A stretch of 64,000 nucleotides of DNA from Eledone cirrhosa (lineage: Eukaryota), in NCBI GenBank assembly GCA_964016885.1, contig OZ024740.1, positions 398,598,001 to 398,662,000 of the forward strand, given 5' to 3'. Position numbers and translations under genes: made by a program. Below, piece after piece: positions 1 through 62,249 of this stretch (position 1 is the first letter of the stretch; each line of letters begins with the position of its first letter). Under the pieces are notes generated by a model. It was not told where the DNA came from, made no database searches, and was given only the letters and a program-made list of their open reading frames with translations.

Positions 1-87
1 TGGTGTCCCCGAAAAATGTATACACACTTTGATTACCTGTACAGGCAATATATATATTAGAATGGTGTATACATTTTTAGGGACCCC

Positions 88-134
<47 letters not shown>

Positions 135-427
135 TGTCCCCGAAAAATGTATACACACTTTGATTGTACAGGCAATATATATATTAGAATGGTGTATACA
201 TTTTTAGGGACCCCGGTATATACATATATATATGGTGTCCCCGAAAAATGTATACACACTTTGATTATCTGTACAGGCAATATATATATTAGAATGGTGT
301 ATACATTTTTAGGGACCCCGGTATATATATATATATATGGTGTCCCCGAAAAATGTATACACACTTTGATTACCTGTACAGGCAATATATATATATTAGA
401 ATGGTGTATACATTTGGAGGGACCCCA

Positions 428-467
<40 letters not shown>

Positions 468-1184
468 TGTCCCCGAAAAATGTATACACACTTTGATTAC
501 CTGTACAGGCAATATATATATTAGAATGGTGTATACATTTTTAGGGACACCGGTATATATATATATATGGTGTCCCCGAAAAATGTATACACACTTGGAT
601 TACCTGTACAGGCAATATATATATATTAGAATGGTGTATACATTTTTAGGGACCCGGTATATATATATATATATATATATATATGGTGTCCCCAAAAATG
701 TATACACACTTTGATTACCTGTACAAGCAATATATATATTTAAATGGTGTATACATTTTTAGGTACCCCGATATATCTATATATGGCGTCCCCTAAAAAT
801 GTATACACACTTTGATTACCTGTACAGACAATATATATATTAGAATGGTGTATACATTTTTAGGGACCCCGGTATATATATATATCTATATGATGTCCCC
901 GAAAAATGTATACACACTTTGATTACCTGTACGGGCAATATATATATTAGAATGGTGTATACATTTTTAAAGATCCCGGTATATATATATATATATATGG
1001 TGTCCCCGAAAAATGTATACACACTTTGATTATCTGTACAGACAATATATATATTAGAATGGTGTATACATTTTTAGGGACACCGGTATATATATATATA
1101 GTGTCCCCGAAAAATGTATACACACTTTGATTACCTGTACAGGCAATATATATATTAGAATGGTCTATACATTTTTAGGGACCC

Positions 1185-1241
<57 letters not shown>

Positions 1242-1647
1242 TGTCCCCAAAAAATGTATACACACTTTGATTACCTGTACAGGCAATATATATATTAGAA
1301 TGGTGTATACATTTTTAGGGAGCCCGGTATATATATATATATATATGGTATCCCCGAAAAATGTATACACACTTTGATTACCTGTACAAACAATATATAT
1401 ATTAGAATGGTGTATACATTTTTAGGGACCCCGGTATATACATATATATATGGTGTCCCCGAAAAATGTATACACACTTTGATTATCTGTACAGGCAATA
1501 TATATATTAGAATGGTGTATACATTTTTAGGGACCCCGGTATATATATATATATATATGGTGTCCCCGAAAAATGCATACACACTTTGATTACCTGTACA
1601 GGCAATATATATATATTAGAATGGTGTATACATTTGGAGGGACCCCA

Positions 1648-1713
<66 letters not shown>

Positions 1714-2542
1714 TGTCCCCGAAAAATGTATACACACTTTGATTACCTGTATAGGCAATATATATATTAGAATGGTGTATACATTTTTAGGGACACCGGT
1801 ATATATATATATATGGTGTCCCCGAAAAATGTATGCACACTTGGATTACCTGTACAGGCAATATATATATATTAGAATGGTGTATACATTTTTAGGGAGC
1901 CGGTATATATATATATATATATATATATGGTGTCCCCAAAAATGTATACACACTTTGATTACCTGTACAAGCAATATATATATTTAAATGGTGTATACAT
2001 TTTTAGGTACCCCGGTATATCTATATATGGCGTCCCCTAAAAATGTATACACACTTTGATTACCTGTACAGACAATATATATATTAGAATGGTGTATACA
2101 TTTTTAGGGACCCCGGTATATATATATATATCTATATGGTGTCCCCGAAAAATGTATACACACTTTGATTACCTGTACGGGCAATATATATATTAGAATG
2201 GTGTATACATTTTTAAAGATCCCGGTATATATATATATATATATGGTGTCCCCGAAAAATGTATACACACTTTGATTATCTGTACAGACAATATATATAT
2301 TAGAATGGTGTATACATTTTTAGGGACACCGGTATATATATATATAGTGTCCCCGAAAAATGTATACACACTTTGATTATCTGTACAGGCAATATATATA
2401 TTAGAATGGTGTATACATTTTTAGGGACCCCCGGTATATATATATATATATATGGTGTCCCCGAAAAATGTATACACACTTTGATTACCTGTACAGGCAA
2501 TATATATATATTAGAATGGTGTATACATTTGGAGGGACCCCA

Positions 2543-2594
<52 letters not shown>

Positions 2595-4443
2595 TGTCCC
2601 CGAAAAATGTATACACACTTTGATTACCTGTACAGGCAATATATATATTAGAATGGTGTATACATTTTTAGGGACACCGGTATATATATATATATGGTGT
2701 CCCCGAAAAATGTATGCACACTTGGATTACCTGTACAGGCAATATATATATATTAGAATGGTGTATACATTTTTAGGGACCCGGTATATATATATATATA
2801 TATATATATATGGTGTCCCCAAAAATGTATACACACTTTGATTACCTGTACAAGCAATATATATATTTAAATGGTGTATACATTTTTAGGTACCCCGGTA
2901 TATCTATATATGGCGTCCCCTAAAAATGTACACACACTTTGATTACCTGTACAGACAATATATATATTAGAATGGTGTATACATTTTTAGGGACCCCGGT
3001 ATATATATATATCTATATGGTGTCCCCGAAAAATGTATACACACTTTGATTATCTGTACAGACAATATATATATTAGAATGGTGTATACATTTTTAGGGA
3101 CACCGGTATATATATATATAGTGTCCCCGAAAAATGTATACACACTTTGATTACCTGTACAGGCAATATATATATTAGAATGGTGTATACATTTTTAGGG
3201 AGCCCGGTATATATATATATATATATATGGTATCCCCGAAAAATGTATACACACTTTGATTACCTGTACAAGCAATATATATATTTGAATGGTGTATACA
3301 TTTTTAGGTACCCCGGTATATCTATATATGGCGTTCCCGAAAAATGTATACACACTTTGATTACCTGTACAGACAATATAGATATAAGAATGGTGTATAC
3401 ATTTTTAGGGACACTGGTATATATATATATAGATATATATATATATGGTGTCACCGAAAAATGTATACACAATTTGATTACCTGTACAGGCAATATATAT
3501 ATTAGAATGGTGTATACATTTTTAGGTACCCCGGTATATCTATATATGGGGTCCCCGAAAAATGTATACACACTTTGATTACCTGTACAGGCAATATATA
3601 TATTAGAATGGTGTATACATTTTTAGGGACCCCGGTATATATATATATATATATGGTGTCCCCGAAAAATGTATACACACTTTGATTATCTGTACAGGCA
3701 ATATATATATTAGAATGGTGTATACATTTTTAGGGAGCCCGGTATATATATATATATGGTGTCCCCGAAAAATGTATACACACTTTGATTACCTGTACAA
3801 GCAATATATATATTTGAATGGTGTATACATTTTTAGGTACCCCGGTATATCTATATATGGGGTCCCCGAAAAATGTATACACACTTTGATTACCTGTACA
3901 GGCAATATATATATTAGAATGGTGTATACATTTTTAGGGACCCCGGTATATATATATATATATATGGTGTCCCCGAAAAATGTATACACACTTTGATTAT
4001 CTGTACAGGCAATATATATATTAGAATGGTGTATACATTTTTAGGGACCCCGGTATATATATATATATGGTGTCCCCGAAAAATTTATACACACTTTGAT
4101 TACCTGTACAGGCAATATATATATTAGAATGGTGTATACATTTTTAGGGACACTGGTATATATATATATGGTGTCCCCGAAAAATGTATACACACTTTGA
4201 TTACCTGTACAGGCAATATATATATTAGAATGGTCTATGCATTTTTAGGGACCCCGGTATATATATATATGGTGTCCCCGAAAAATGTATACACACTTTG
4301 ATTACCTGTACAGGCAATATATATATTAGAATGGTGAATACATTTTTAGGGACCCCGGTATATATATGGTGTCCCCGAAAAATGTATACACACTTTGATT
4401 ACCTGTACAGGCAATATATATATTAGAATGGTGTATACATTTT
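1..4443. repeat. Tandem satellite, about 41 monomers of an ~88-bp MITE-like core separated by variable (TA)n; runs off the left edge of the window
   Basis: Core GGTGTCCCCGAAAAATGTATACACACTTTGATTACCTGTACAGGCAATATATATATTAGAATGGTGTATACATTTTTAGGGACCCCGG repeats head-to-tail. Each monomer has inverted ends (GTCCCCGAAAAATGTATACAC / GTGTATACATTTTTAGGGAC). ORFs here are repeat artefacts. Confidence 0.97.
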
Positions 4444-17643: not shown

Positions 17644-18187
17644 TATAATGTCAGCAGGAAATGCATACAATATAATGTCAGCAGGAAATGCAGTTAGAAA
17701 AGAACTTCATCTCTACTTTTTCAGCCACCTTCTAGCGTGCAGTTTTGTACATTAAGTTTGGATTGCACATGTAACACTAGTTTGTGAAACAGATTGGAGA
17801 ACCGCTCTGTTGGTAAGATACAAGTGAGAAAATAACACAACAAATTAGAGACAGAAAAATTACGTGTCTTTCGACAAAAACAGATGAGTGCATAAAAATA
17901 TTGCAACTAGAAATAAGTTTAACAATTTGAAAGATCAACTTTATTACAATATAAGAAGAAGATTTAAAACTCAATGTGTTTGTACAATCCGCAACTATGA
18001 AGAGCGAATTCATCCAAAGTATAATCCATATGTTAAAATTGTACGAATGTAACTTTCCAGAACATGAATAGTAAATATCAACGAAGCGTATAGGTAGAAT
18101 TATATCATTTTATTAGTTTTACGCATGTTTCATCAACTGCAGAAAATATCAATTGATAGGGATGTGTAAAAATGTTTGTAAGTTATC

Positions 18188-18348
18188 AAATTATAAATGT
18201 TGGATTCTTATAGAATTCCAGTAATAATCAGGAACTGATTATACAGAGCGGTTGCGGTCCAGCAAAAATTGAAAATTAGAATTGGTGCTCTGTATAATCA
18301 GTTCCTGATTATTACTGGAATTCTATAAGAATCCAACATTCATAATTT
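18188..18348. repeat. Long inverted repeat (54-bp perfect arms, 37-nt spacer)
   Basis: 18196-18249 is the exact reverse complement of 18287-18340. It extends 7 more bp after one mismatch. Confidence 0.93.
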
Positions 18349-18439
18349 TTCAACAAACAAAGGGAGTACTAAGCTCTGAGGAATACCAACAGTATGAAAC
18401 AGAGATCTGTCAGCTTATCTCCCTTTGTTTGTTGAAAAA
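18346..18439 (+). ncRNA. Type I hammerhead ribozyme, complete catalytic core
   Basis: Stem I TAAGCT/AGCTTA, extended by TTTTTCAACAAACAAAGGGAG/CTCCCTTTGTTTGTTGAAAAA. CTGAGGA at 18376-82. Stem II ATAC-caaca-GTAT. GAAA at 18396-99. Stem III ACAG-agat-CTGT. GTC cleavage triplet ends at 18411. Confidence 0.88.
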
Positions 18440-19119
18440 AGAAGTAAGTGACATAGTCACTACTTTAAAACAATAGCGTAAGGTCTTCAAAATGCTTTTA
18501 ATTAAGCATACAGTGTATTACCAAATACTATATATACATTCATATATGCATCTCTATAAAATGTTTATTATGTCTAATATTAAAGATAGTTGGTAGTTAT
18601 TCCACAGTTTATTGAAAGTTGTTACTATAATTTCGTGTATATCTATTAAGTCCTTTTAAGAAATACAACTGCAGGAGTCTTCTAGATCAAGGACTACAGT
18701 ATCCTGGATACACACATCTAATGTATTTTTTACGATGGTACGGTTTGAATCTCTTTCAGTTATTTTATGGGGATTTTGCTGTTGTTTTCTAGCATATAGA
18801 GTGACCACGTGGAGACTCTCATTAGCTAGTGTTGTCACCCGTCCTTGCCGCCGTTGTTGCTGATGAGGATGATATGATGATGACGATGACGATGATGATG
18901 ATGATGATGATGATGATGATAGTTGCGAGATATCTGGATATATAGTCAATTCTTGACAGTCTAACTTAAACGATCCATTCCGCAGGAGTTCATTGTTTTT
19001 TGTTTTATTGTTGTTGTTTTCTTTAAAGAACACCACCACCCCCACCACCCCCCAAAAAATATGTGGGCGTAAGTGGGGTCATGTAAATAAATAGTAAATT
19101 AAGTTATCAGATTGAGCAA

Positions 19120-19275: not shown

Positions 19276-19380
19276 CCATAGATCATACAACAATTTACAA
19301 GATGACACCCATGACAAAATACTACTAATGTTGAACTGGAGAAATACAGAGGAAAAAACACAGAAAGAAAGAAATTAGAG

Positions 19381-19480
19381 CATACATACATACATACATA
19401 CATACATACATACATACATACATACATACATACATACATACATACATACATACATACATACATACGTACATACATACATA
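19381..19480. repeat. (CATA)n microsatellite, ~25 units
   Basis: Directly visible. Confidence 0.97.
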
Positions 19481-20833
19481 AATAAGGAGAGAACCAGAAC
19501 TGAATACCTCAGAAGAGTAAAGAAAATATGGTCATCAGAACTGTCAGCGTACAACAAGTACATTGCCCACAATACTTATGCTGTGCCAATTCTAACGCCA
19601 ACATTTAGCCTGCTGAACTGGTCATTGCAAGAACTAAGTGAGATGGATGTTAGAACTCGCAAACTTCTCAGTGTTACTGGGAACTTTAACATCAATGGTG
19701 ATGTGGATAGGCTATACTTCTCACGCAAGGAAGGTGGCCGGGGTCTAAAATCCATATTAACATCATATGAGACCAGGATAGTAACACTGAAGCAACATCT
19801 TCAACAGAGGAAAAAGGTTGGCAACCATCTTGCCCAGGTTTATGAGCATGAAGAAAAAAATATCACTAGGATAGCCACTGATCTGGAGGAGAGATATGGA
19901 ATAAAGCCTGATATAAATCTCTCACCCAGAGAAATCGGAAGATCCTATTCAATGTTCAAACAAGATGAAAAAATTGACCAATTTACAGAAAAAGTTGTGC
20001 ATGGATACTTGAGGCGTAAAACACAGACCATAGAGGGGATAAACCACTCAAAAAGCCTGGCATGGAGTTCCGACAAGTTTATGACATCACACCTTGAGGG
20101 ATATCTCTATGCAATACAGGAACAAGAACTCCCTACCAAATATCTGCTGCACAAAAGAGGAGAGCCAGCAGCTGACAATAAATGCAGGCTATGTAAAACA
20201 AAGATCGAAGATGTAAGCCACATTGTTGCCAGCTGCGAAAGAATGTCATCTCGCTACTACCTCCCCATGAGACACGATGGGATAGCTAGAACCATCTGGA
20301 ACGCACTTCGGAAAACAAAATTAACAACAAACGAGGAAGAATATATCGAGACAGATGGCACTAAGGAATACTGGTGAAACCTGAAAATAAAAACTGCCAC
20401 CAAATTAAAGCACAACCGACCTGATATTGTTGTTTGGGACCACACATTGAAAACGTGTTCTGTTGTGGAGATCAGCTGCCCACTTGATGTAAACGTTGTC
20501 AGAAAAATACAGGAGAAGGAAGACATCTACGGACCATTGATGAGGAGTTTACAAATCAAGTATCCAAGATACACCTTTAGCTTCTTACCCATCATTATTG
20601 GAGCTACGGGTTATATACCAACCCGCTTGGACCAATGTATAACTGAAGTTGGATTTGTGGACAAAGAGCGCAGCTCCCTAATTCATAGTCTACAAATGGC
20701 TGCGATAGCTGGCACCTTCAAAATTTGCATAACATTCTTGCGATTCAGGGATGACAATTTCTTTTCTTTTACGACTTTGCCACCAGGAAGGTGGTCGGTC
20801 AAAAATATACTCGAAATTAAGAGAAAGAGAGAA
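19481..20833 (+). mobile_element. 5'-truncated R4/Dong-clade non-LTR retrotransposon (RT thumb, CCHC zinc knuckle, RLE), with one in-frame stop
   Basis: NKYIAHNTYAVP..DVDRLYFSRKEGGRGL, CRLC-x7-H-x4-C, RHD, then HNRPDIVVWD..VEISCP in the same frame after TGA at 20375-77. Confidence 0.88.
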
Positions 20834-21459
20834 CATACCTACATACATACATGGTGGCTGCCAACTCGTTTTCGAGTACGGCCACTACTTTATATCCATG
20901 TAGGAGAACCCCTACCAATGCGCTGAACGAGTGTGACTTTTTAGTCCAGCCAGCGACTTGAAAACTCTGGTACAAACACTACACTTGTGACAATTACTGA
21001 CACACAGTGCTGGGCCCATGGTACCATGTGACGACAAGTGCAGAGAGATCTCCAGATATAAAGCAATGCCTGTGCCGTGAAGCTTTTATAGTGAGCAAAG
21101 GCACTGCACAAAGCCAGTCCCACTCTCTTAACCAAGATGATATTTACCAAAAAGAAGAACAAGTCAACATCATTGGATACCATCAGAGTTGCAGGTGTTA
21201 TATCAGAGTTTTCCTTCTTCTAGAATTCTGCCTTGACAAAGGCTAAGGGGTCATCTCTCCCGGTGATTTTGGATGGCCATTGACTCTTAAGAGCTCCTTT
21301 GCCCTTTGACAGGTTTTGTTTTTAGTCCTGCAGGATGTCCAAAGTCACCCTCCTCACCAAGAAACCTTGGTGGGGTTGCCAGTTTAGTCGCCAACGACCC
21401 GACCATGAGACAGGTTGTACTGGGATACATGTTACCAGTAGCACCAACTAGTGACCTGA
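20834..21459 (-). mobile_element. Non-autonomous bipartite RTE derivative (5' UTR-like region joined to an RTE 3' hairpin and (ATGT)n tail)
   Basis: Minus strand has the RTE-5'-UTR-like motif CTAGAAGAAGGAAAACTCTGA and ends GGCCGTACTCGAAAACGAGTTGGCAGCCACC(ATGT)n. No RT. Sister copies at 23456-23751 and 23895-24462. Confidence 0.65.
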
Positions 21460-23455
21460 CATACATACATACATACATACATACATACATACATACATAC
21501 ATACATACATACATACATACATACATACATGATGATGACTGCCCCCTCGTTATCGAGTATGGCCATTGCACGAGAAAAAAAAAATATATATATATATATA
21601 TATACATATATATTAATAACAATAATAATAATAATAACAACAATAATAATAACGACAACAACAACAATAATGATATACATATATATATATACACACACAC
21701 GCACACACATAAACATATCTATACACACACACACACACGATAGCAACTAACAGCGCTGCGATCGAATGTGGCTTTTTAGCCCAGCCAATGATCTAAAATG
21801 TCTTGCAACCAAATCATTCACTGGGTAATAGCCGGCTGTGGTTGGAGTTCATGTACTTTTGCATGTCGTTTGAGCCCTCCTGCTGATTTACATTCTCTAC
21901 CACATGTTTGGCAAGCATGATGAGTAGCATCTCCAACAGCAGCCTGGTAGTCAACCACTGGTCTTACTTTATGACTGCGAAGATGACTTTCGAGTCCAGC
22001 TTTGCTTAGGCAGAGTCTCGCACAGACGCTGCATGCCAGCACCATAGGAGGACCCTCGCCGTCTGGAAGTGCAACAGCAATGCCCTTCCTCACATCCCGC
22101 TTTACTTTCTTGTATGCAATTCAAGATGCCTCAAAGGCAACTTTTCCCTCATATACAGTCTTTCTCCATTTATTACGATCAGCAGCAATATTTTCCCATG
22201 TATCAGCAGAGATGTTAGCGTCTTTCAAAGAGGCTTTCAAGGAACCTTATACCTCTTTTTTGGTTTATGTTGCGGTCGTTTTTCTTTAACTCACTCTCCA
22301 TAAAGGAGTTGTTTTGGTATTCTAGAATCCTTCATCCTGGCAAGGTGACCACTCCAACGTAGTCGTTGCTTAAGCACAAGAGCTTCTATACTGTCACACA
22401 TAGAGCTTTCCAAAATCTCTACATCACTGATGTGGTCCCTCCAGTGAATGCCATGGATCCGTCTGAGACACATCTGATCGAAACGCTCCAATTGCTTAAG
22501 GTGGTGTCGATATGTGACCCAGGTCTCGCAGGCATAAAGAAAACAAGAGAGCACACATGCCTTGTACACCTTTACCTTTGTCTTCTTGCATATGTCTCGC
22601 CGACCCCAGTGTCGCCTTTCTAGCTTTCCGAAAACATCACTTGCTTTCCTTATCCTAAGTGAGATTTCCCTATCAAGGTTGCTGTATCGATTGACAGTGC
22701 TTCCCAGGTAGACAAACTGATCAACCACTCTAAGTCGTTTACCATACACATAGATATTTGGTTCACTGTACTGCTTACCAGGGGCAGGTTGGTACCTGAC
22801 GACGGTTTTCTTGAGACTGACAGTCAATCCTAGGGCAGTGCAAGCGTCAGAAAATGCATTCAAAATGTGCTGCATATCACTCTCTGTGTGCGCTACAAGA
22901 TCGCAATCATCTGCATACAAGAGGTCTCTTATGATTGATGTAAATACTTTTGTCTTTGCAGCAAAGTGCCTGATGTTAAATACGCTGCCTGAGGTTCGAT
23001 ATCGGATGTAAACACCATGCTCGCAATTCCTGAATGCAATACAGAAAACCATTGCAAAGTATATGGCAAACAGGGTCGGTGCTGGAATATCCCCCTGTTT
23101 CACTCCATTTTTTACTGAGATAGGCTCCGACATGTTACCTCCGACATTAACCCAAGCCTTCATGTCGTCATGGAAAGACCTAACTAAAGCAAGGAACTTA
23201 TCAGGGAAACCAACTTTCTGAAGAACCTTCCATAATGCATTTCTGTTAACAGTATCGAAAGCTTTTGTCAGATTGACAAAAACCTGATACAGATCCAAAC
23301 CTTGTTCCATGCACTTCTCCTGGAGCTGTCTAGCTGAGAAGATCATATCAGTAGTGCGGCGTCCGGCACGAAAACCAAATTGACTTTCAGGAAGAACACA
23401 ATCTGCAATGTGTGTCAGCAGACGGTCCAGAAGCACCCTACATAAAACTTTCCCT
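21460..23455 (-). mobile_element. 5'-truncated RTE LINE (RT plus C-terminal C2H2 zinc fingers) with (ATGT)n tail, frameshifted
   Basis: ORF 22291-23463: QFGFRAGR, KAFDTVNR, GVKQGD, LYADDC, FVYLGS, RLRWSGH. ORF 21818-22093: CSVC..HLRSH and CQTC..HAKVH. 3' hairpin GGCCATACTCGATAACGAG at ~21545-21565. Confidence 0.9.
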
Positions 23456-23751
23456 ACATACATACATGGTGGTTGCCAACTCGTTTTCGAGTACGGCCAT
23501 TACTTTATAACCATGTAGGAGAACCCCTACCGATGCGCTGAACAAGTGTGACTTTTTAGTCCAGCCAGTGACTTGAAAACTCTGGTACAAACACTAGACT
23601 TGTGACAATTATTGACACATAGTGCTGGGCCCATGGTACCATGTGATGACAAGTGCAGAGAGATCTCCAGATATAAAGCAATGCCTGTGCCGTGAAGCTT
23701 TTATAGTGAGAAAAGGCACTGCACAAAGTCATTCCCACTCTCTTAACCAAG
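23456..23751 (-). mobile_element. Second, 5'-truncated copy of the bipartite RTE derivative
   Basis: Nearly identical to ~20840-21137. Confidence 0.85.
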
Positions 23752-55241: not shown

Positions 55242-58200
55242 ATCATCATCATCATTTTACGTCCGCTTTTCCCTGCTTGCAAGGGTGGGACGGGTCTTAT
55301 TCAGCACAGCATCTCTCCACTCATCACGGTCCTTCGTCATCTCCACCGTGAGCTTCAATGATCTGAGATCTGTTCTCACCACCTCCGCCCATGTTTTTCG
55401 TGGTCTACCTCTACCACGTCTTCCTTCAACTGACAATTCCTGGCACTTCTTCACCCATCGGTCATCCTCCATGCGCATCACATGTCCATACCACCTCAGT
55501 CTCCTCTCCCGTACACTACATTCTATCCCTCTGACACAGTTTCTCTCTCAACACATTTATGCTGGGTCGTTCACGCACATTTACACTGCACATCCAACGG
55601 AGCATGCTTGCCTCATTTCTCTCCAGCCGTCGCATATCCTCTGCAGTTGCTGCCCATGTCTCACTACCATTCAGCATCGCGCTCCTCACACAGGCATCAT
55701 ACAACCGGCCTTTCGTACGCAGGGAGAAACCCTTCTTCGTCAACAGAGGAAGCAGCTCCCTAAACTTCTTCCAACCCGTCCTTATTCTAGATACTATGGC
55801 CTCGGAACACCCTCCTCTCATGCTAACCTGATCTCCTAGGTACCGGAAGCTATCCACCACTTCTATAGCACCCTCCTGCATTTGAAAAATGTGTCTATCA
55901 ATGCGACTTCTACTGTCTAATTTCCCTGCATATCTTCTGCATACATATTTCTCCCTACCTGTTAGTTTGCTTGCTATCCCACTACATCTCTTGTGTACCT
56001 AGGATCTGCATTGTGTGCATTTTATAGAATTTATGCCAGTTCCTTTTCTGCATATCGAACATGGCCATTTCCCTGATGGAATCAGGGTTTTGTCCTCTTT
56101 TCTACTCATCAACACTTTTGTCTTAGCTAGATTCACTCTCAGTCCTCTTGCTTCCAACTGCTGTTTCCATAGCCAGAATTTATTCTCTAACTCCTCTACT
56201 GATTCTGCTATAAGAACCAGATCGTCAGCATAGAGAAGTTCCCATGGACAGCCAGTCTTAAACTCCTCTGTTATGGCTTGGAGGACTATAATGAACAAGA
56301 GCGGGCTGAGGACCGAACCCTGATGTACTCCTACTTGTATCTGGAATTCCTCACTAAACTCCATTCCTACTCTGACTTTACTGAGAGTACCTCTGTACAA
56401 AGTTTGCACTGTCCTCACAAGCCATTCCCCAACACCCAGCTTCCTTAGGGACCACCAGATGACAGATTGGGGTACCCTATCAAAGGCCTTCTCTAGGTCA
56501 ACAAAGGCTAAGTATAGTGGCTTATTCTTCTCTAAGAACCTCTCTTGCAATTGTCTCACCAAGAAGAGGGCATCTGTTGTACTCTTCCCAGGCACAAAAC
56601 CAAACTGCATCTCATCTAGTTTGACCCTTTCTCTAAATAGTTGTGCTAAAATCCTTTCTGCCACTTTCATAACTTGATCTATCAGTTTTATACCCCTATA
56701 ATTGCTCCTCTCCAAAGCATCCCCTTTACCTTTGTAGCAATTTATGAGAATACTGCTGCACCAGTCTTTGGGTATGACACCACCATATATAGCCTGATTG
56801 ATGATGCGTGCAACCAGTTTAGTGCCTACGTCCCCTGATGCCTTCAGCATCTCACCAACTATTCCCGATGGTCCGGCAGCCTTACCATTTTTCATTTCCC
56901 TAATCGCCTCTTGGACCCTATATTCGTCAATCTCAATAGCTGGTCCCTCTGTCGGATCTACCAAGGGCAATTTCTCTCTCCCATTTGTTCTCCACATTCA
57001 TCAGTCTCTCATAATGACATTTCCAGGCCTCCTTTTTCTGATCATTCGTGACACTAAGTACACCGGCATCATCCCGGACACATTTATCCCCAACAACATC
57101 CTGATTTGCATTGACACACTGCCTTGCAATGTGGAACACCGCACGCCTCTGATCTTCCAGTCGCAGAACATTGGCAAACCTCCTACTCTCTGCCTCCCTG
57201 CGTGCTAAGTACACCTGACGTCTAGCTTCTCTCTTAGTGGCTGTATATTCTTCCCTACTCCCACCCTTTTTCCAAGCCTTCCATGCTAGTCTCTAATAGC
57301 CTTATCTACTGTGCTGTTCCACCACCAGGTCACTCTCTGTCTGGTTGGAGCTCTGCTCCAGCCACAAGTTTCATCAGTAGCCTGCAGCAAGTTGTCACGT
57401 AAGAAATTCCAGTTATTATCTATGTCATACGTCTCTAAATCGTCTTCTTTTTCGTCATATACATCTTGAAGGGCTTTCCTAAATTTGTATTTTAGTGAAA
57501 GGTCTTTTAGCTTCCAGACCTTTCTTCTCCACACCTTCCTATATGTCTCATTCCATCTCTTGCTTACTGAGATATCACTAACAACTAACCTATGCTGTGG
57601 GGTACATTCTTCCCCAGGGTATGCCTTGGTATTAGACACTCTCTGCCTGTCCTGCTGCCTAACTAGTAAGAAGTCAATCTGGCTTATGTGCTCACCAGAT
57701 TTGTAGGTTATTAGGTGATTGGCAGGTTTCTGGAAGTTTGAGTTGCAAATAGTCAATGTACCTGCATCACAAAATTCAAGAAGTCTCACTCCTTCTTCAT
57801 TTCTTGAACCGTAACCGTGCCCACCATGTACCCCAGTGTAACCATCCTGGAGCTGTCCAACATGACCATTGAAGTCTCCTGCTAGCATGACGATGTCTCC
57901 GTCTTCTGTGATTGCGGTTGTTTGCAAAAGTTGCTCATAAAAGCAGTCTTTCTCATCTTTGCCTAGGCCTGCTTGAGGAGCATAGGCCGAGATGATTGTC
58001 AGTAGTCTCCTACCTACAACTAATCTAAGCTTAATTATTCGATTGCTAACTCGAACTACCTCTATTGTCTTATTGATCCATTTCTCAGCCAAGAAAATGC
58101 CTACTCCCCCTAACCCATCATCCTTACCTACCCAGAATAGCTTATAGCTAAGACGTTTGCCTACGACTAGTCTCGCAGAGGCACCTCTCCATCTCACCTC

Positions 58201-58314
58201 TTGCACGCAGCACACATCCACCTGCCTTCTCTCCAGCAACTCCGCTATTTCAGCAGATCTACCTCTGAGAGTGCCAACATTAAGTGTTGCAACTCTGAGA
58301 TGCGACGTCTTCAT
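55242..58314 (-). mobile_element. Near full-length RTE LINE (APE-RT with PHD), inactivated by frameshifts and a stop
   Basis: ORFs at 57286-58314 (TLNVGTL, CVQE, YAPQ, GDFNGH), 55999-56997 (LLYADD), 55516-55881 and 55257-55481. (ATG)n tail. Confidence 0.95.
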
Positions 58315-58799
58315 ATTTTGTTGTTGTTCCTATTTGTTGCTGTGCTGATAAGCGTTTTGGCATTGATACACTGGTTGGATGCCCTTCCTAACACCAGCGC
58401 CACTTTACAGCATGGACTGGGTGCTTTTATTTGTGCCACCAGCACTAGAGAGGATGGTTTACTAGACTCAAGGGCCCTCTCTAACCCTCCATTTTACAGC
58501 ATGGTCATTAAAAAAAAAAATTAAAAAAAACTTATTGACACGACGCACACACACACACTCACACACCAACACTCATGCATACAAACCACAAACACACACA
58601 CACACTCACACACCAACACTCATGCATACAAACCACAAACACACACACGCCACTCACATACCAACACTCATTCATGCATACAAACACACACATATATATA
58701 TATTACCGGCAGTACTGATACAAATACAAAATCAAAATCATGTCAACTGTTGACTTTTCCCAGTCCAGTTCAGCTTGTATATAATAATAATAATAATAA

Positions 58800-59165: not shown

Positions 59166-59200
59166 TTGAAAAGTCCATTTCAATTGGATGTGCCATGCTA

Positions 59201-62200
59201 TCAGAGGTAGGTCTGCTGAAATAGCGGAGATGCTGGAGAGAAGGCAGGTGGATGTGTGCTGCGTGCAAGAGGTGAGATGGAGGGGTGCCTCTGCGAGACT
59301 AGTCGTAGGCAAGCGTCTTAGCTATAAGCTATTCTGGGTAGGTAAGGATGATGGGTTAGGGGGAGTAGGCATTTTCCTGGCTGAGAAATGGATCAATAAG
59401 ACAATAGAGGTAGTTCGAGTTAGTAATCGAATAATTAAGCTTAGATTAGTTGTAGGTAGGAGACTACTGACAATCATCTCGGTCTATGCTCCCCAAGCAG
59501 GCCTAGGCAAAGATGAGAAAGACTGCTTTTATGAGCAACTTTTGCAAACAACCACAATGACAGAGGACGGAGACATCGTTATGCTAGCAGGAGACTTCAA
59601 TGGTCATGTTGGACAGCTCCAGGATGGTTACACTGGGGTACATGGTGGGCACGGTTACGGTTCAAGAAATGAAGAAGGAGTGAGACTTCTTGAATTTTGT
59701 GATGCAAGTACATTGACTATTTGCAACACAAACTTCCAGAAACCTGCCAATCACCTAATAACCTACAAATCTGGTGAGCACATAAGCCAGATTGACTTCC
59801 TGCTAGTTAGGCAGCGGGACAGGCAGATAGTGTCTAATACCAAGGCATACCCTGGGGAAGAATGTACCCCACAGCATAGGTTAGTTGTTAGTGATATCTC
59901 AGTAAGCAAGAGATGGAATGAGACATATAGGAAGGTGTGGAGAAGAAAGGTCTGGAAGCTAAAAGACCTTTCACTAAAATTCAAATTTAGGAAAGCCCTT
60001 CAAGATGTATATGACGAAAAAGAAGACGATTTAGAGACGTATGACATAGATAATAACTGGAAGTTCTTACGTGACAACTTGCTGAAGGCTACTGATGAAA
60101 CCTGTGGCTGGAGCAGAGCTCCAACCAGACAGAGAGTGACCTGGTGGTGGAACAGCAGTGTAGATAAGGCTATTAGAGACAAAAGACTAGCATGGAAGGC
60201 TTGGAATAAGGGTGGGAGTAGGGAAGAATATACAGCCACTAAGAGAGAAGCTAGACGTCAGGTGTACTTAGCACGCAGGGAGGCAGAGAGTAGGAGGTTT
60301 GCCAATGTTCTGCGACGGGAAGATCAGAGGCGTGCGGTGTTCCACATTGCAAGGCAGTGTGTCAATGCAAATCAGGATGTTGTTGGTGATAAATGTGTCC
60401 GGGATGATGCCGGTGTACTTAGTGTCACGAATGACCAGAAAAAGGAGGCCTGGAAATGTCATTATGAGAGACTGATGAATGTGGAGAACGAATGGGAGAG
60501 AGAGAAATTACCCTTGGTAGATCCGACAGAGGGACCAGCTATTGAGATTGACGAATATAGGGTCCAAGAGGCGATTAGGGAAATGAAAAATGGTAAGGCG
60601 GCCGGACCATCGGGAATAGTTGCTGAGATGCTGAAGGCATCAGGGGACGTAGGCACTAAACTGGTTGCACGCATAATCAATCAGGCTATATATGGTGGTG
60701 TCATACCCAAAGACTGGTGCAGCAGTATTCTCATAAATTGCTACAAAGGTAAAGGGGATGCTTTGGAGAGGAGCAATTATAGGGGTATAAAACTGATAGA
60801 TCAGGTTATGAAAGTGGCAGAAAGGATTCTAGCACAACTAATTAGAGAAAGGGTCAAACTAGATGAGATGCAGTTTGGTTTTGTGCCTGGGAAGAGTACA
60901 ACAGATGCCCTCTTCTTGGTGAGACAAATGCAAGAGAGGTTCTTAGAGAAGAATAAGCCACTATACTTAGCCTTTGTTGACCTAGAGAAGGCCTTTGATA
61001 GGGTACCCCGATCTGTCATCTGGTGGTCCCTAAGGAAGCTGGGTGTTGAGGAATGGCTTGTAAGGACAGTGCAAACTTTGTACAGAGGTACTCTCAGTAA
61101 AGTCAGGGTAGGAATGGAGTTTAGTGAGGAATTCCAGATACAAGTAGGAGTACATCAGGGTTCGGTCCTCAGCCCGCTCTTGTTCATTATAGTCCTCCAA
61201 GCCATAACAGAGGAGTTTAAGACTGGCTGTCCATGGGAACTTCTCTATGCTGACGATCTGGCTCTTATGGCAGAATCAGTAGAGGAGCTAGAGAATAAAT
61301 TCCGGCTATGGAAACAGCAGTTGGAAGCAAGAGGACTGAGAGTAAATCTAGCTAAGACAAAAGTGTTGATGAGTAGAAAAGAGGACAAAACCCTGATTCC
61401 GTCAGGGAAATGGCCATGTTCGATATGCAGAAAAGGAACTGGCATAAATTCTATAAAATGCACACAATGTAGGTCCTGGGTACACAAGAGATGTAGCGGG
61501 ATAGCAGGCAAACTAACAGGTAGGGAGAAATATGTATGCAGTAGATGTACAGGGAAATTAGACAGTAGAAGTCGCACTGATAGACACATTTTTCAAATGC
61601 GAGAGGGCGCTATAGAAGTGGTGGATAGCTTCCGGTACCTAGGAGATCAGATTAGCATGGGAGGAGGGTGTTCCGAGGCCATAGTATCTAGAATAAGGAC
61701 GGGTTGGAAGAAGTTTAGGGAGCTGCTTCCTCTGTTGACGAAGAAGGGTTTCTCCCTGCGTACGAAAGGCCGGTTGTATGATGCCTGTGTGAGGAGCGCG
61801 ATGCTGCATGGTAGTGAGACATGGGCAGCTACCGCAGAAGATATGCGACGGCTGGAGAGAAATGAGGCAAGCATGCTCCGTTGGATGTGCAGTGTAAATG
61901 TGCGTGAACGACCCAGCATAAATGTGTTGAGAGAGAAACTGTGTCTGAGAGGGATAGAATGTAGTGTACGGGAGAGGAGACTGAGGTGGTATGGACATGT
62001 GATGCGCATGGAGGATGACCGATGGGTGAAGAAGTGCCAGGAAATGCCAGTTGAAGGAAGACGTGGTAGAGGTAGACCACGAAAAACATGGGCGGAGGTG
62101 GTGAGAACAGACCTCAGATCATTGAAGCTCACGGTGGAGATGACGAGGGACCGTGACGAGTGGAGAGATGCTGTGCTGAATAAGACCCGTCCCACCCTTG

Positions 62201-62249
62201 CAAGCAGGGAAAAGCGGACGTAAAATGATGATGATGATGATGATGATGA
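59201..62249 (+). mobile_element. RTE LINE with an uninterrupted ~1000-codon APE-RT ORF (to 62223), lacking ~15 N-terminal codons and the 5' UTR
   Basis: APE (CVQE, YAPQ, GDFNGH, QIDF), RT (QFGF, DLEKAFD, GVHQGS, YADD at 61246-57, FRYLG), PHD at 61417-61548, (ATG)n tail. The listed ATG at 59188 lies in flanking DNA. Confidence 0.96.

What the first reader, a model, noticed from the sequence alone, without database searches (positions are those of the whole stretch)
18346..18439. Complete, previously unannotated-looking type I hammerhead ribozyme with a long bulged stem I
Seen: every conserved core nucleotide is present (CUGAGGA, GAAA, GUC) and all three stems pair. Stem I continues for ~21 bp beyond a TAC/T internal loop, placed where loop-2/stem-I tertiary contacts occur in fast type I hammerheads. 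Established: animal type I hammerheads are mostly tied to Penelope-like elements and retrozymes. Inference: this copy could self-cleave after C18411. No Penelope ORF is adjacent, so it is a small non-autonomous element or a domesticated ribozyme.
Basis: partly seen in the sequence, partly recalled or inferred. Interest (0 to 1): 0.8.

Follow-up and report, generated by a model that had tools for sequence, protein, structure and literature searches.

The report
Hammerhead ribozyme in Penelope-type retrozyme repeat
This hammerhead ribozyme motif is real but not unique: it sits in one truncated copy of a 319-base non-coding repeat found thousands of times in this animal genome, whose ribozyme fold is kept by compensatory changes and which is likely copied around by Penelope-like retrotransposons; self-cleavage is predicted, not tested.

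Summary
It is not a lone or domesticated ribozyme. It lies in a 319-bp non-coding unit with at least 2,529 exact 24-mer matches in the genome. The window copy is a short insertion: an inverted 5' piece (18188-18292) joined to about 0.85 unit (18287-18557). Across subfamilies the stems change on both sides, and the core pair C3-G8 switches to U3-A8 (43 versus 22 of 74 copies, at least two origins), so the family was selected for the catalytic fold. Insertions show Penelope-like marks: 5'-to-5' inversions (32 of 60, none tail-to-tail), two 3' ends about 30 nt apart with the longer one never on both sides, and TA-repeat targets. Verdict: a new family of animal non-LTR retrozyme, likely moved by Penelope-like elements. 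No parent element, RNA evidence or cleavage assay was obtained, and Rfam hammerhead models miss this copy.

The parts
18188..18557 (.). Whole insertion (about 370 bp) of the 319-bp retrozyme-type repeat: inverted 5' piece plus a forward 0.85 unit; no clear target-site duplication seen
   Evidence: right junction bridged without differences by contigs of three public runs of one sample
18188..18292 (-). Inverted arm, unit positions 151-256 (counted from the cut site); stops short of the ribozyme; overlaps the forward arm by 6 nt of microhomology (18287-18292) and makes a 55-bp perfect hairpin with it
18287..18557 (+). Forward arm, unit positions 195-319 then 1-148; ends near the short 3' end of the family and lacks most of the 30-nt tail
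18346..18439 (+). Canonical type I hammerhead ribozyme with extended stem I
18367..18369 (+). UAC bulge of stem I (family pattern U-R-Y), opposite U18418; likely partner of loop 2
   Evidence: column counts; role inferred from canonical type I hammerheads (PMC4209133, PMC6155905)
18376..18382 (+). Catalytic core strand CUGAGGA (C3 at 18376, G8 at 18381; this pair covaries to U3-A8 in other subfamilies)
18383..18395 (+). Stem II (4 bp) and loop 2 (CAACA)
18396..18411 (+). GAAA, stem III with 4-nt loop, and GUC triplet; predicted cut between 18411 and 18412
   Evidence: the cut is predicted, not tested

Best explanation
The motif is an intact type I hammerhead inside a truncated, dispersed copy of a 319-bp non-coding repeat family (an animal non-LTR retrozyme) that is likely copied into new sites by the reverse transcriptase and GIY-YIG endonuclease of Penelope-like elements (PLEs). 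Shown: the unit, its copy number, subfamilies, covariation and insertion anatomy. Inferred: source copies with two or more ribozymes are transcribed and cut to 319-nt monomers that are probably ligated into circles; a PLE protein nicks AT-rich DNA and starts reverse transcription at two internal sites about 135-142 and about 168 nt downstream of the ribozyme cut, on the two target strands, giving two 5'-truncated cDNAs joined head to head with a 30-nt tail on one side only. The window copy holds one ribozyme, so it would cut a read-through transcript once but could not release a monomer or circle: it is most likely a dead-end progeny copy.
For: Unit length 319 from a natural tandem, 292-319 in others. 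Copy number: 208 exact 31-mers, 313 intact core plus stems II/III patterns, 807 of a second subfamily motif, 2,529 exact 24-mers; reversed-pattern controls 0. Structure: 93% of 2,273 cells paired, 12 of 34 pairs with two-sided change, covariation 0.213 against 0.133 in shuffles and at most 0.096 when slid (68 of 87 rows). In 74 model-aligned copies from a separate sample: C3-G8 43, U3-A8 22, C3-A8 2, U3-G8 2, other 5 (a model-free parse of 47 of 62 rows gave 26, 15, 4, 1, 1); a tree built without the core columns forces at least 2 changes for U3-A8 (37 rows). PLE marks: 5'-to-5' inversions in 32 of 60 loci and never 3'-to-3'; 78 of 92 3' ends in two clusters (unit positions 126-152 and 160-180); of 32 inverted pairs 18 long+short, 4 short+short, 0 long+long, 10 with one end elsewhere; a second set gave 17 of 20 simple inversions, 10 long+short, 1 short+short, 0 long+long. 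56 of 80 3' ends are followed by TA repeats against 11% background. These match the PLE anatomy in Craig et al. (10.1101/2021.04.23.441226, passages) and the two internal start sites in PMC11167929 (main text). 93 of 108 tracts run across an intact cut site (28 of 43 among tracts not used as search anchors), so the template was uncut or re-ligated. The unit is non-coding: an in-frame stop in nearly all of 150 scored copies, longest open frame 269 aa. PLE-type RT plus GIY-YIG elements abound in the genome.
Against: No autonomous element sharing the unit was found: none among the loci fetched and none in the one PLE family examined (30 loci). No RNA evidence of transcription, cleavage or circles. 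Rfam hammerhead models miss this copy. Stem II opens with A-U here and with U-U or A-A in other subfamilies; the catalytic fold is a minor conformer by secondary-structure energy. Most insertions are 0.3-1 kb, only 4 of 108 tracts cross two cut sites, and no long tandem array was seen in the loci fetched, unlike the coral and axolotl retrozymes. Copies are related, so the covariation counts are few independent events. In the literature 8 of 9 frog retrozyme dimers did not cleave in vitro, and a PLE hammerhead needed protein and was dispensable for insertion in vitro.
Confidence: 0.85

Rival explanations
1. The unit is the pseudo-LTR of an autonomous PLE, and all copies seen are its 5'-truncated ends.
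For: Same inversions, tail and TA targeting as autonomous PLEs; in a lizard PLE the hammerhead lies just upstream of the start sites of reverse transcription, as here.
Against: Going upstream, copies continue into the previous unit rather than into an ORF, up to about 650 nt; no linked ORF in 150 scored copies; animal PLE hammerheads are usually minimal whereas this one is canonical with 6-bp and 4-bp helices.
Confidence: 0.08
2. The family is moved by another route (a LINE such as the abundant RTE-type elements, or as a foldback DNA element), and the ribozyme only processes its RNA.
For: LINE RT remnants are everywhere, including this window; twin priming by LINEs also gives inversions (recalled; one such paper seen only as a search listing); many insertions look like large palindromes.
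Against: The 3' ends are internal points of a circularly permuted unit with a one-sided 30-nt tail, a mark described as peculiar to PLEs; both arms have variable 5' truncations, not fixed terminal repeats; no poly(A) or LINE-like 3' end.
Confidence: 0.05
3. This copy is a domesticated ribozyme with a host function.
For: Its core is fully intact and it is the best-scoring match to the family model among the sources searched (partly by construction).
Against: About 97% identical to another dispersed copy, so intactness is explained by youth; it lies between older repeats and LINE remnants; no host exon was recognised among the window's long frames.
Confidence: 0.02

Closest known systems
Animal non-LTR retrozymes (Cervera and de la Pena 2020, PMC7229834; Li, Clavereau and Pollet 2026, 10.64898/2026.07.22.740005)
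   Same: Non-coding 150-450 bp unit (here 319, 33-36% GC) with one canonical type I hammerhead per unit, thousands of copies, monomers and short tandems, PLEs in the same genome.
   Different: Here most insertions are short and head-to-head inverted with a one-sided tail; no long arrays seen in the loci fetched; stem I is extended by about 20 bp; circles not shown; no sequence link to a PLE found.
Penelope-like element pseudo-LTRs with hammerheads (Cervera and de la Pena 2014, PMC4209133; Craig et al. 2021; Frangieh et al. 2024, PMC11167929)
   Same: 5' truncation, partial tandems, inverted 5' copy, 30-40 nt tail on one end, TA-rich targets, hammerhead upstream of the 3' ends, heterogeneous ribozyme subfamilies with compensatory changes including U3-A8 for C3-G8, palindromic short helix III in several subfamilies.
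   Different: No ORF; hammerhead is canonical rather than minimal.
Schistosoma mansoni Sm-alpha and newt satellite-2 type I hammerheads (as reviewed in PMC6155905)
   Same: 6-bp helix I closed by an internal loop, 4-bp helix II, short helix III, repeat context.
   Different: Helix II opens with A-U and is AU-rich; below Rfam Hammerhead_1 detection; activity and loop contacts unmeasured.
Non-autonomous Chlamys PLEs such as MRC1 (Craig et al. 2021, passage)
   Same: Non-coding PLE passengers with pLTR-like and head-to-tail insertions.
   Different: That clade mostly lacks hammerheads, and those elements share 3' sequence with known autonomous partners; here no partner is identified.

Membership tests
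Type I hammerhead ribozyme | Conserved core CUGANGA, GAAA, UH | tested here: met
   family columns U4 71, G5 68, A6 70, A9 71, G12 67, A13 73, A14 72 of 74
Type I hammerhead ribozyme | Three helices with helix I open-ended, supported by covariation | tested here: met
   helix III varies on one side only in alignment A1
Type I hammerhead ribozyme | C3-G8 core pair kept or swapped as a pair | tested here: met
   C-G 43, U-A 22, mismatched or other 9 of 74; at least two origins
Type I hammerhead ribozyme | G10.1-C11.1 pair opening helix II (typical, not universal) | tested here: not met
   A-U in this copy; family A-U 27, U-U 18, G-C 11, A-A 9 of 73
Type I hammerhead ribozyme | Loop 1 - loop 2 tertiary contact | tested here: inconclusive
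   bulge U 68 of 74 and opposing U 73 of 74 conserved; contact itself not testable
Type I hammerhead ribozyme | Site-specific self-cleavage | not testable with these tools
   no assay; no RNA run available
Rfam Hammerhead_1 (RF00163) | Score above the family's cut-off | tested here: not met
   no match at E up to 10; the model does detect another repeat family in this genome
Animal non-LTR retrozyme | Non-coding 150-450 bp low-GC unit with one type I hammerhead per unit | tested here: met
Animal non-LTR retrozyme | Tandem copies with at least two consecutive ribozymes exist in the family | tested here: met
   L006, L009, L050, L090, L115, L116, L117, L121; the window copy itself has only one, so it is a monomer derivative
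Animal non-LTR retrozyme | No LTR, primer-binding site or ORF | tested here: inconclusive
   no ORF and no fixed terminal repeats; primer-binding site not searched
Animal non-LTR retrozyme | Expressed as linear and circular monomer RNA | not testable with these tools
   no RNA holder listed
PLE-mobilised insertion | 5' truncation, partial tandem, inverted 5' copy | tested here: met
PLE-mobilised insertion | 30-40 nt tail on one end only | tested here: met
   28 long+short, 5 short+short, 0 long+long among 33 inverted pairs with both ends in a cluster, of 49 pairs
PLE-mobilised insertion | AT-rich or TA-repeat targets | tested here: met
   56 of 80 ends against 11% background; the unit's own short end is TA-like, which may inflate this
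Autonomous PLE | RT plus GIY-YIG ORF between the repeats | tested here: not met
   none attached in the loci fetched; search not genome-wide

The most novel reading that the evidence does not exclude
A retrozyme family whose insertions carry the full Penelope signature (two internal start sites, one-sided tail, head-to-head inversion) while reading straight through ribozyme junctions and while selection repeatedly rebuilt the catalytic core (C3-G8 to U3-A8 at least twice, stems remodelled faster than flanks): genomic evidence that PLE reverse transcriptase copies ribozyme-cut, re-ligated RNA circles, i.e. that hammerhead catalysis is needed in vivo to make the circular template although it is dispensable in vitro.
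Probability: 0.3. Interest if true: 0.65.

Novelty: new member of a known kind. Interest (0 to 1): 0.38.

Why it matters
The single copy is ordinary, one of thousands. The family is useful because two questions are open in the papers read: which element moves animal retrozymes (proposed from co-occurrence and pLTR similarity) and what the hammerhead does for Penelope-type elements (dispensable for insertion in vitro). Here the insertion anatomy points to PLE enzymes independently of sequence homology, and paired changes in the core show that catalysis was under selection in a protein-free passenger. A 319-nt template with natural monomer-type and dimer-type subfamilies is a compact substrate for testing linear against circular templates with a purified PLE protein.

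Tried and rejected
Rfam scans: no hammerhead hit for this copy; the miRNA-family hits are generic hairpin matches below cut-off. RNA evidence: no RNA holder listed; contigs of runs of unrecorded kind were laid and show presence, variants and one real junction only; no empty-site allele was seen, and three of the runs are one sample that may be the window's source. Protein-coding reading of the ribozyme region (a 45-80 codon frame): rejected, stop in nearly all of 150 copies and frameshifting indels between subfamilies. Search for the autonomous parent: one abundant RT plus GIY-YIG family examined, no shared sequence beyond TA-like stretches; other PLE families not examined; Pfam gave no hit for these proteins, identity rests on motifs and Atlas look-alikes. 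Upstream flank as part of the element: rejected, two older unrelated repeats; downstream flank found only once. Viroid-like reading (ribozymes on both strands): rejected, the second strand's ribozyme comes from DNA-level inversion with variable junctions. Pile-up of 5' ends just after the cut site: 15 of 108 ends in unit positions 1-28 against 7.3 expected (p about 0.007) with a deficit just before the cut, but on inspection several are fold-backs through stem I or short pieces missed by the mapping; not used as evidence. Earlier-findings look-ups by place and sequence were empty. Literature searches listed no description of this family; the supplement of PMC7229834 could not be read, bioRxiv supplements are closed, and repeat libraries such as Repbase or Dfam could not be searched, so it may already be catalogued there.

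Full report
Observation. My descriptor finds only this site in the window and none in 300 shuffles. Rfam finds no hammerhead here at any threshold tried. The catalytic secondary structure is 0.7 kcal/mol above the minimum-energy fold, in which CUG pairs with loop 2; the upstream hairpin does not change this.

Context. The window lies in a 3.0-Gb animal genome rich in microsatellites and LINE remnants; a mollusc host is my guess from this make-up and from Atlas taxa, not established. A DNA search with 18150-18460 gave 104 matches from 40 scored of 1,916 candidates. A natural tandem defines a 319-bp unit. Counting from the cut site, the window holds positions 151-256 on the minus strand (18188-18292) joined through 6 nt of microhomology to positions 195-319 and 1-148 on the plus strand (18287-18557). 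Exact-pattern counts give lower bounds: 208, 313, 807 for another subfamily and 2,529 for a shared 24-mer, with reversed controls at 0. The nearest fetched copy is about 97% identical. The flanks are two older repeats upstream and sequence found only once downstream; contigs of three runs of one sample bridge the right junction. One run labelled with another organism also holds pieces of the unit (15 contigs), which may be a relative or a mixed sample.

Selection on the fold. Subfamilies share the unit but differ most in the ribozyme. On a MAFFT alignment of 68 of 87 collected ribozymes (19 left out as duplicates or as cut by a junction or deletion), 93% of cells pair, 12 of 34 pairs change on both sides, and the covariation score is 0.213 against 0.133 in shuffles and at most 0.096 for slid structures; the count of pairs with two-sided change alone does not beat shuffles (99 of 500). 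I then fetched 60 further loci from the first 100 listed matches, leaving out those already held. In the 74 best of 91 model matches (window copy and 16 weak or reverse-strand matches left out; alignment fitted to the model), position 3 and 8 read C-G 43, U-A 22, C-A 2, U-G 2, other 5; a model-free parse of 47 of 62 rows agrees. A tree of 37 copies built without the core and stems II-III needs at least two changes for U3-A8 on well-supported branches, one in each main lineage; bootstrap had not fully settled and two rows were mislabelled by deletions. This swap is described in PLE hammerheads (PMC4209133, main text parts 1-2), and the C3-G8 pair is needed for cleavage in a PLE hammerhead (PMC11167929, main text). 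Stem III loops range from 1 to 4 nt and are palindromic in several subfamilies, which would need dimers; the window's subfamily has a 4-nt non-palindromic loop and could fold as a monomer (inference from PMC4209133 and PMC7229834). The weak point is pair 10.1-11.1: A-U here, unpaired in 34 of 73 copies.

Insertion anatomy. In the 60-locus sample 32 insertions are two arms joined 5' to 5', 28 are single arms, and none is 3' to 3'. 78 of 92 3' ends fall in two clusters, about position 140 and about 168. Among inverted pairs, long+short 18, short+short 4, long+long 0, other 10; a second set of 20 insertions found by the core 31-mer gives 17 simple inversions with 10, 1, 0 and 6. TA repeats follow 56 of 80 ends against 11% background. 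Craig et al. describe this layout for PLEs (passages), and Frangieh et al. explain the tail by two internal start sites of reverse transcription downstream of the hammerhead, on AT-rich targets. 93 of 108 tracts cross an intact cut site and 4 cross two, so the template was an uncut multimer or a re-ligated circle; the data do not tell which. An excess of 5' ends just after the cut site was examined and set aside.

Partner. The unit does not code. PLE-type RT plus GIY-YIG elements are very common in this genome (55,503 first-look candidates, 150 scored; a 576-aa frame resembles HTH_animal / RVT_1 / GIY-YIG clusters at 0.95-0.98), but the one family examined shares no sequence with the unit. The mobiliser is therefore inferred from anatomy, not identified.

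Mechanism. Shown: unit, copy number, covariation, insertion marks, single ribozyme in this copy. Inferred: transcription of tandem sources, cleavage to monomers, ligation to circles (by analogy with coral, mussel and axolotl retrozymes; PMC7229834, parts 1-4 of 6 read), and PLE-primed reverse transcription from two internal sites. The window copy could cut a passing transcript once but not release a monomer.

Comparison and novelty. It fits animal non-LTR retrozymes, which a 2026 preprint argues are non-autonomous PLE derivatives (parts 1-3 of 5 read). The review PMC6155905 was seen as passages. Five searches listed no description of this family, with unread supplements and unsearched repeat libraries as gaps. 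Earlier notes of this scan report PLE-type insertion marks on other non-coding units in other genomes (unchecked leads).

Noticed in passing
L097-L114 (e.g. L097:1501-1545): A second, unrelated type I hammerhead repeat family in this genome that passes the Rfam Hammerhead_1 cut-off (18 of 74 scored); no BLAST similarity to the 319-bp unit, often ends in TA, and one inverted pair (L112/L113).
   Followed up: partly
L122-L151, L212:3527-5254 (-): Very abundant PLE-type family with RT, long linker, Cys-rich motif and C-terminal GIY-YIG, and a shared 3' region of about 1.2-1.3 kb ending in TA; my descriptors found no hammerhead in its sense strand within the stretches fetched.
   Followed up: partly
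L134:114-165 and L129:41-95 (+): Possible minimal hammerhead whose stem III and cut site run into a TA repeat, at the end of another element.
   Followed up: no
window 59170-62223 (+), with a second copy 55516-58329 (-): 1017-codon open frame of a LINE with endonuclease, RT and an inserted PHD-like finger; the two copies are inverted relative to each other.
   Followed up: partly
window 19379-20926 (+) and 22291-23499 (-): Other non-LTR retrotransposon remnants: one with zf-RVT and a restriction-like endonuclease motif (motif recalled), one with an RVT_1 domain flanked by a 300-nt direct repeat at 20838 and 23453.
   Followed up: partly
window 17700-17916 and 17908-18180: Two older dispersed repeats at 70-80% identity to other copies, directly upstream of the insertion.
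   Followed up: partly
L022:1800-3190: A 31-bp piece of the 319-bp unit (positions about 53-86) expanded into a minisatellite of over 1 kb.
   Followed up: no
window 1-4300: Degenerate tandem repeat mixed with TA runs, visible as repeating translations.
   Followed up: no
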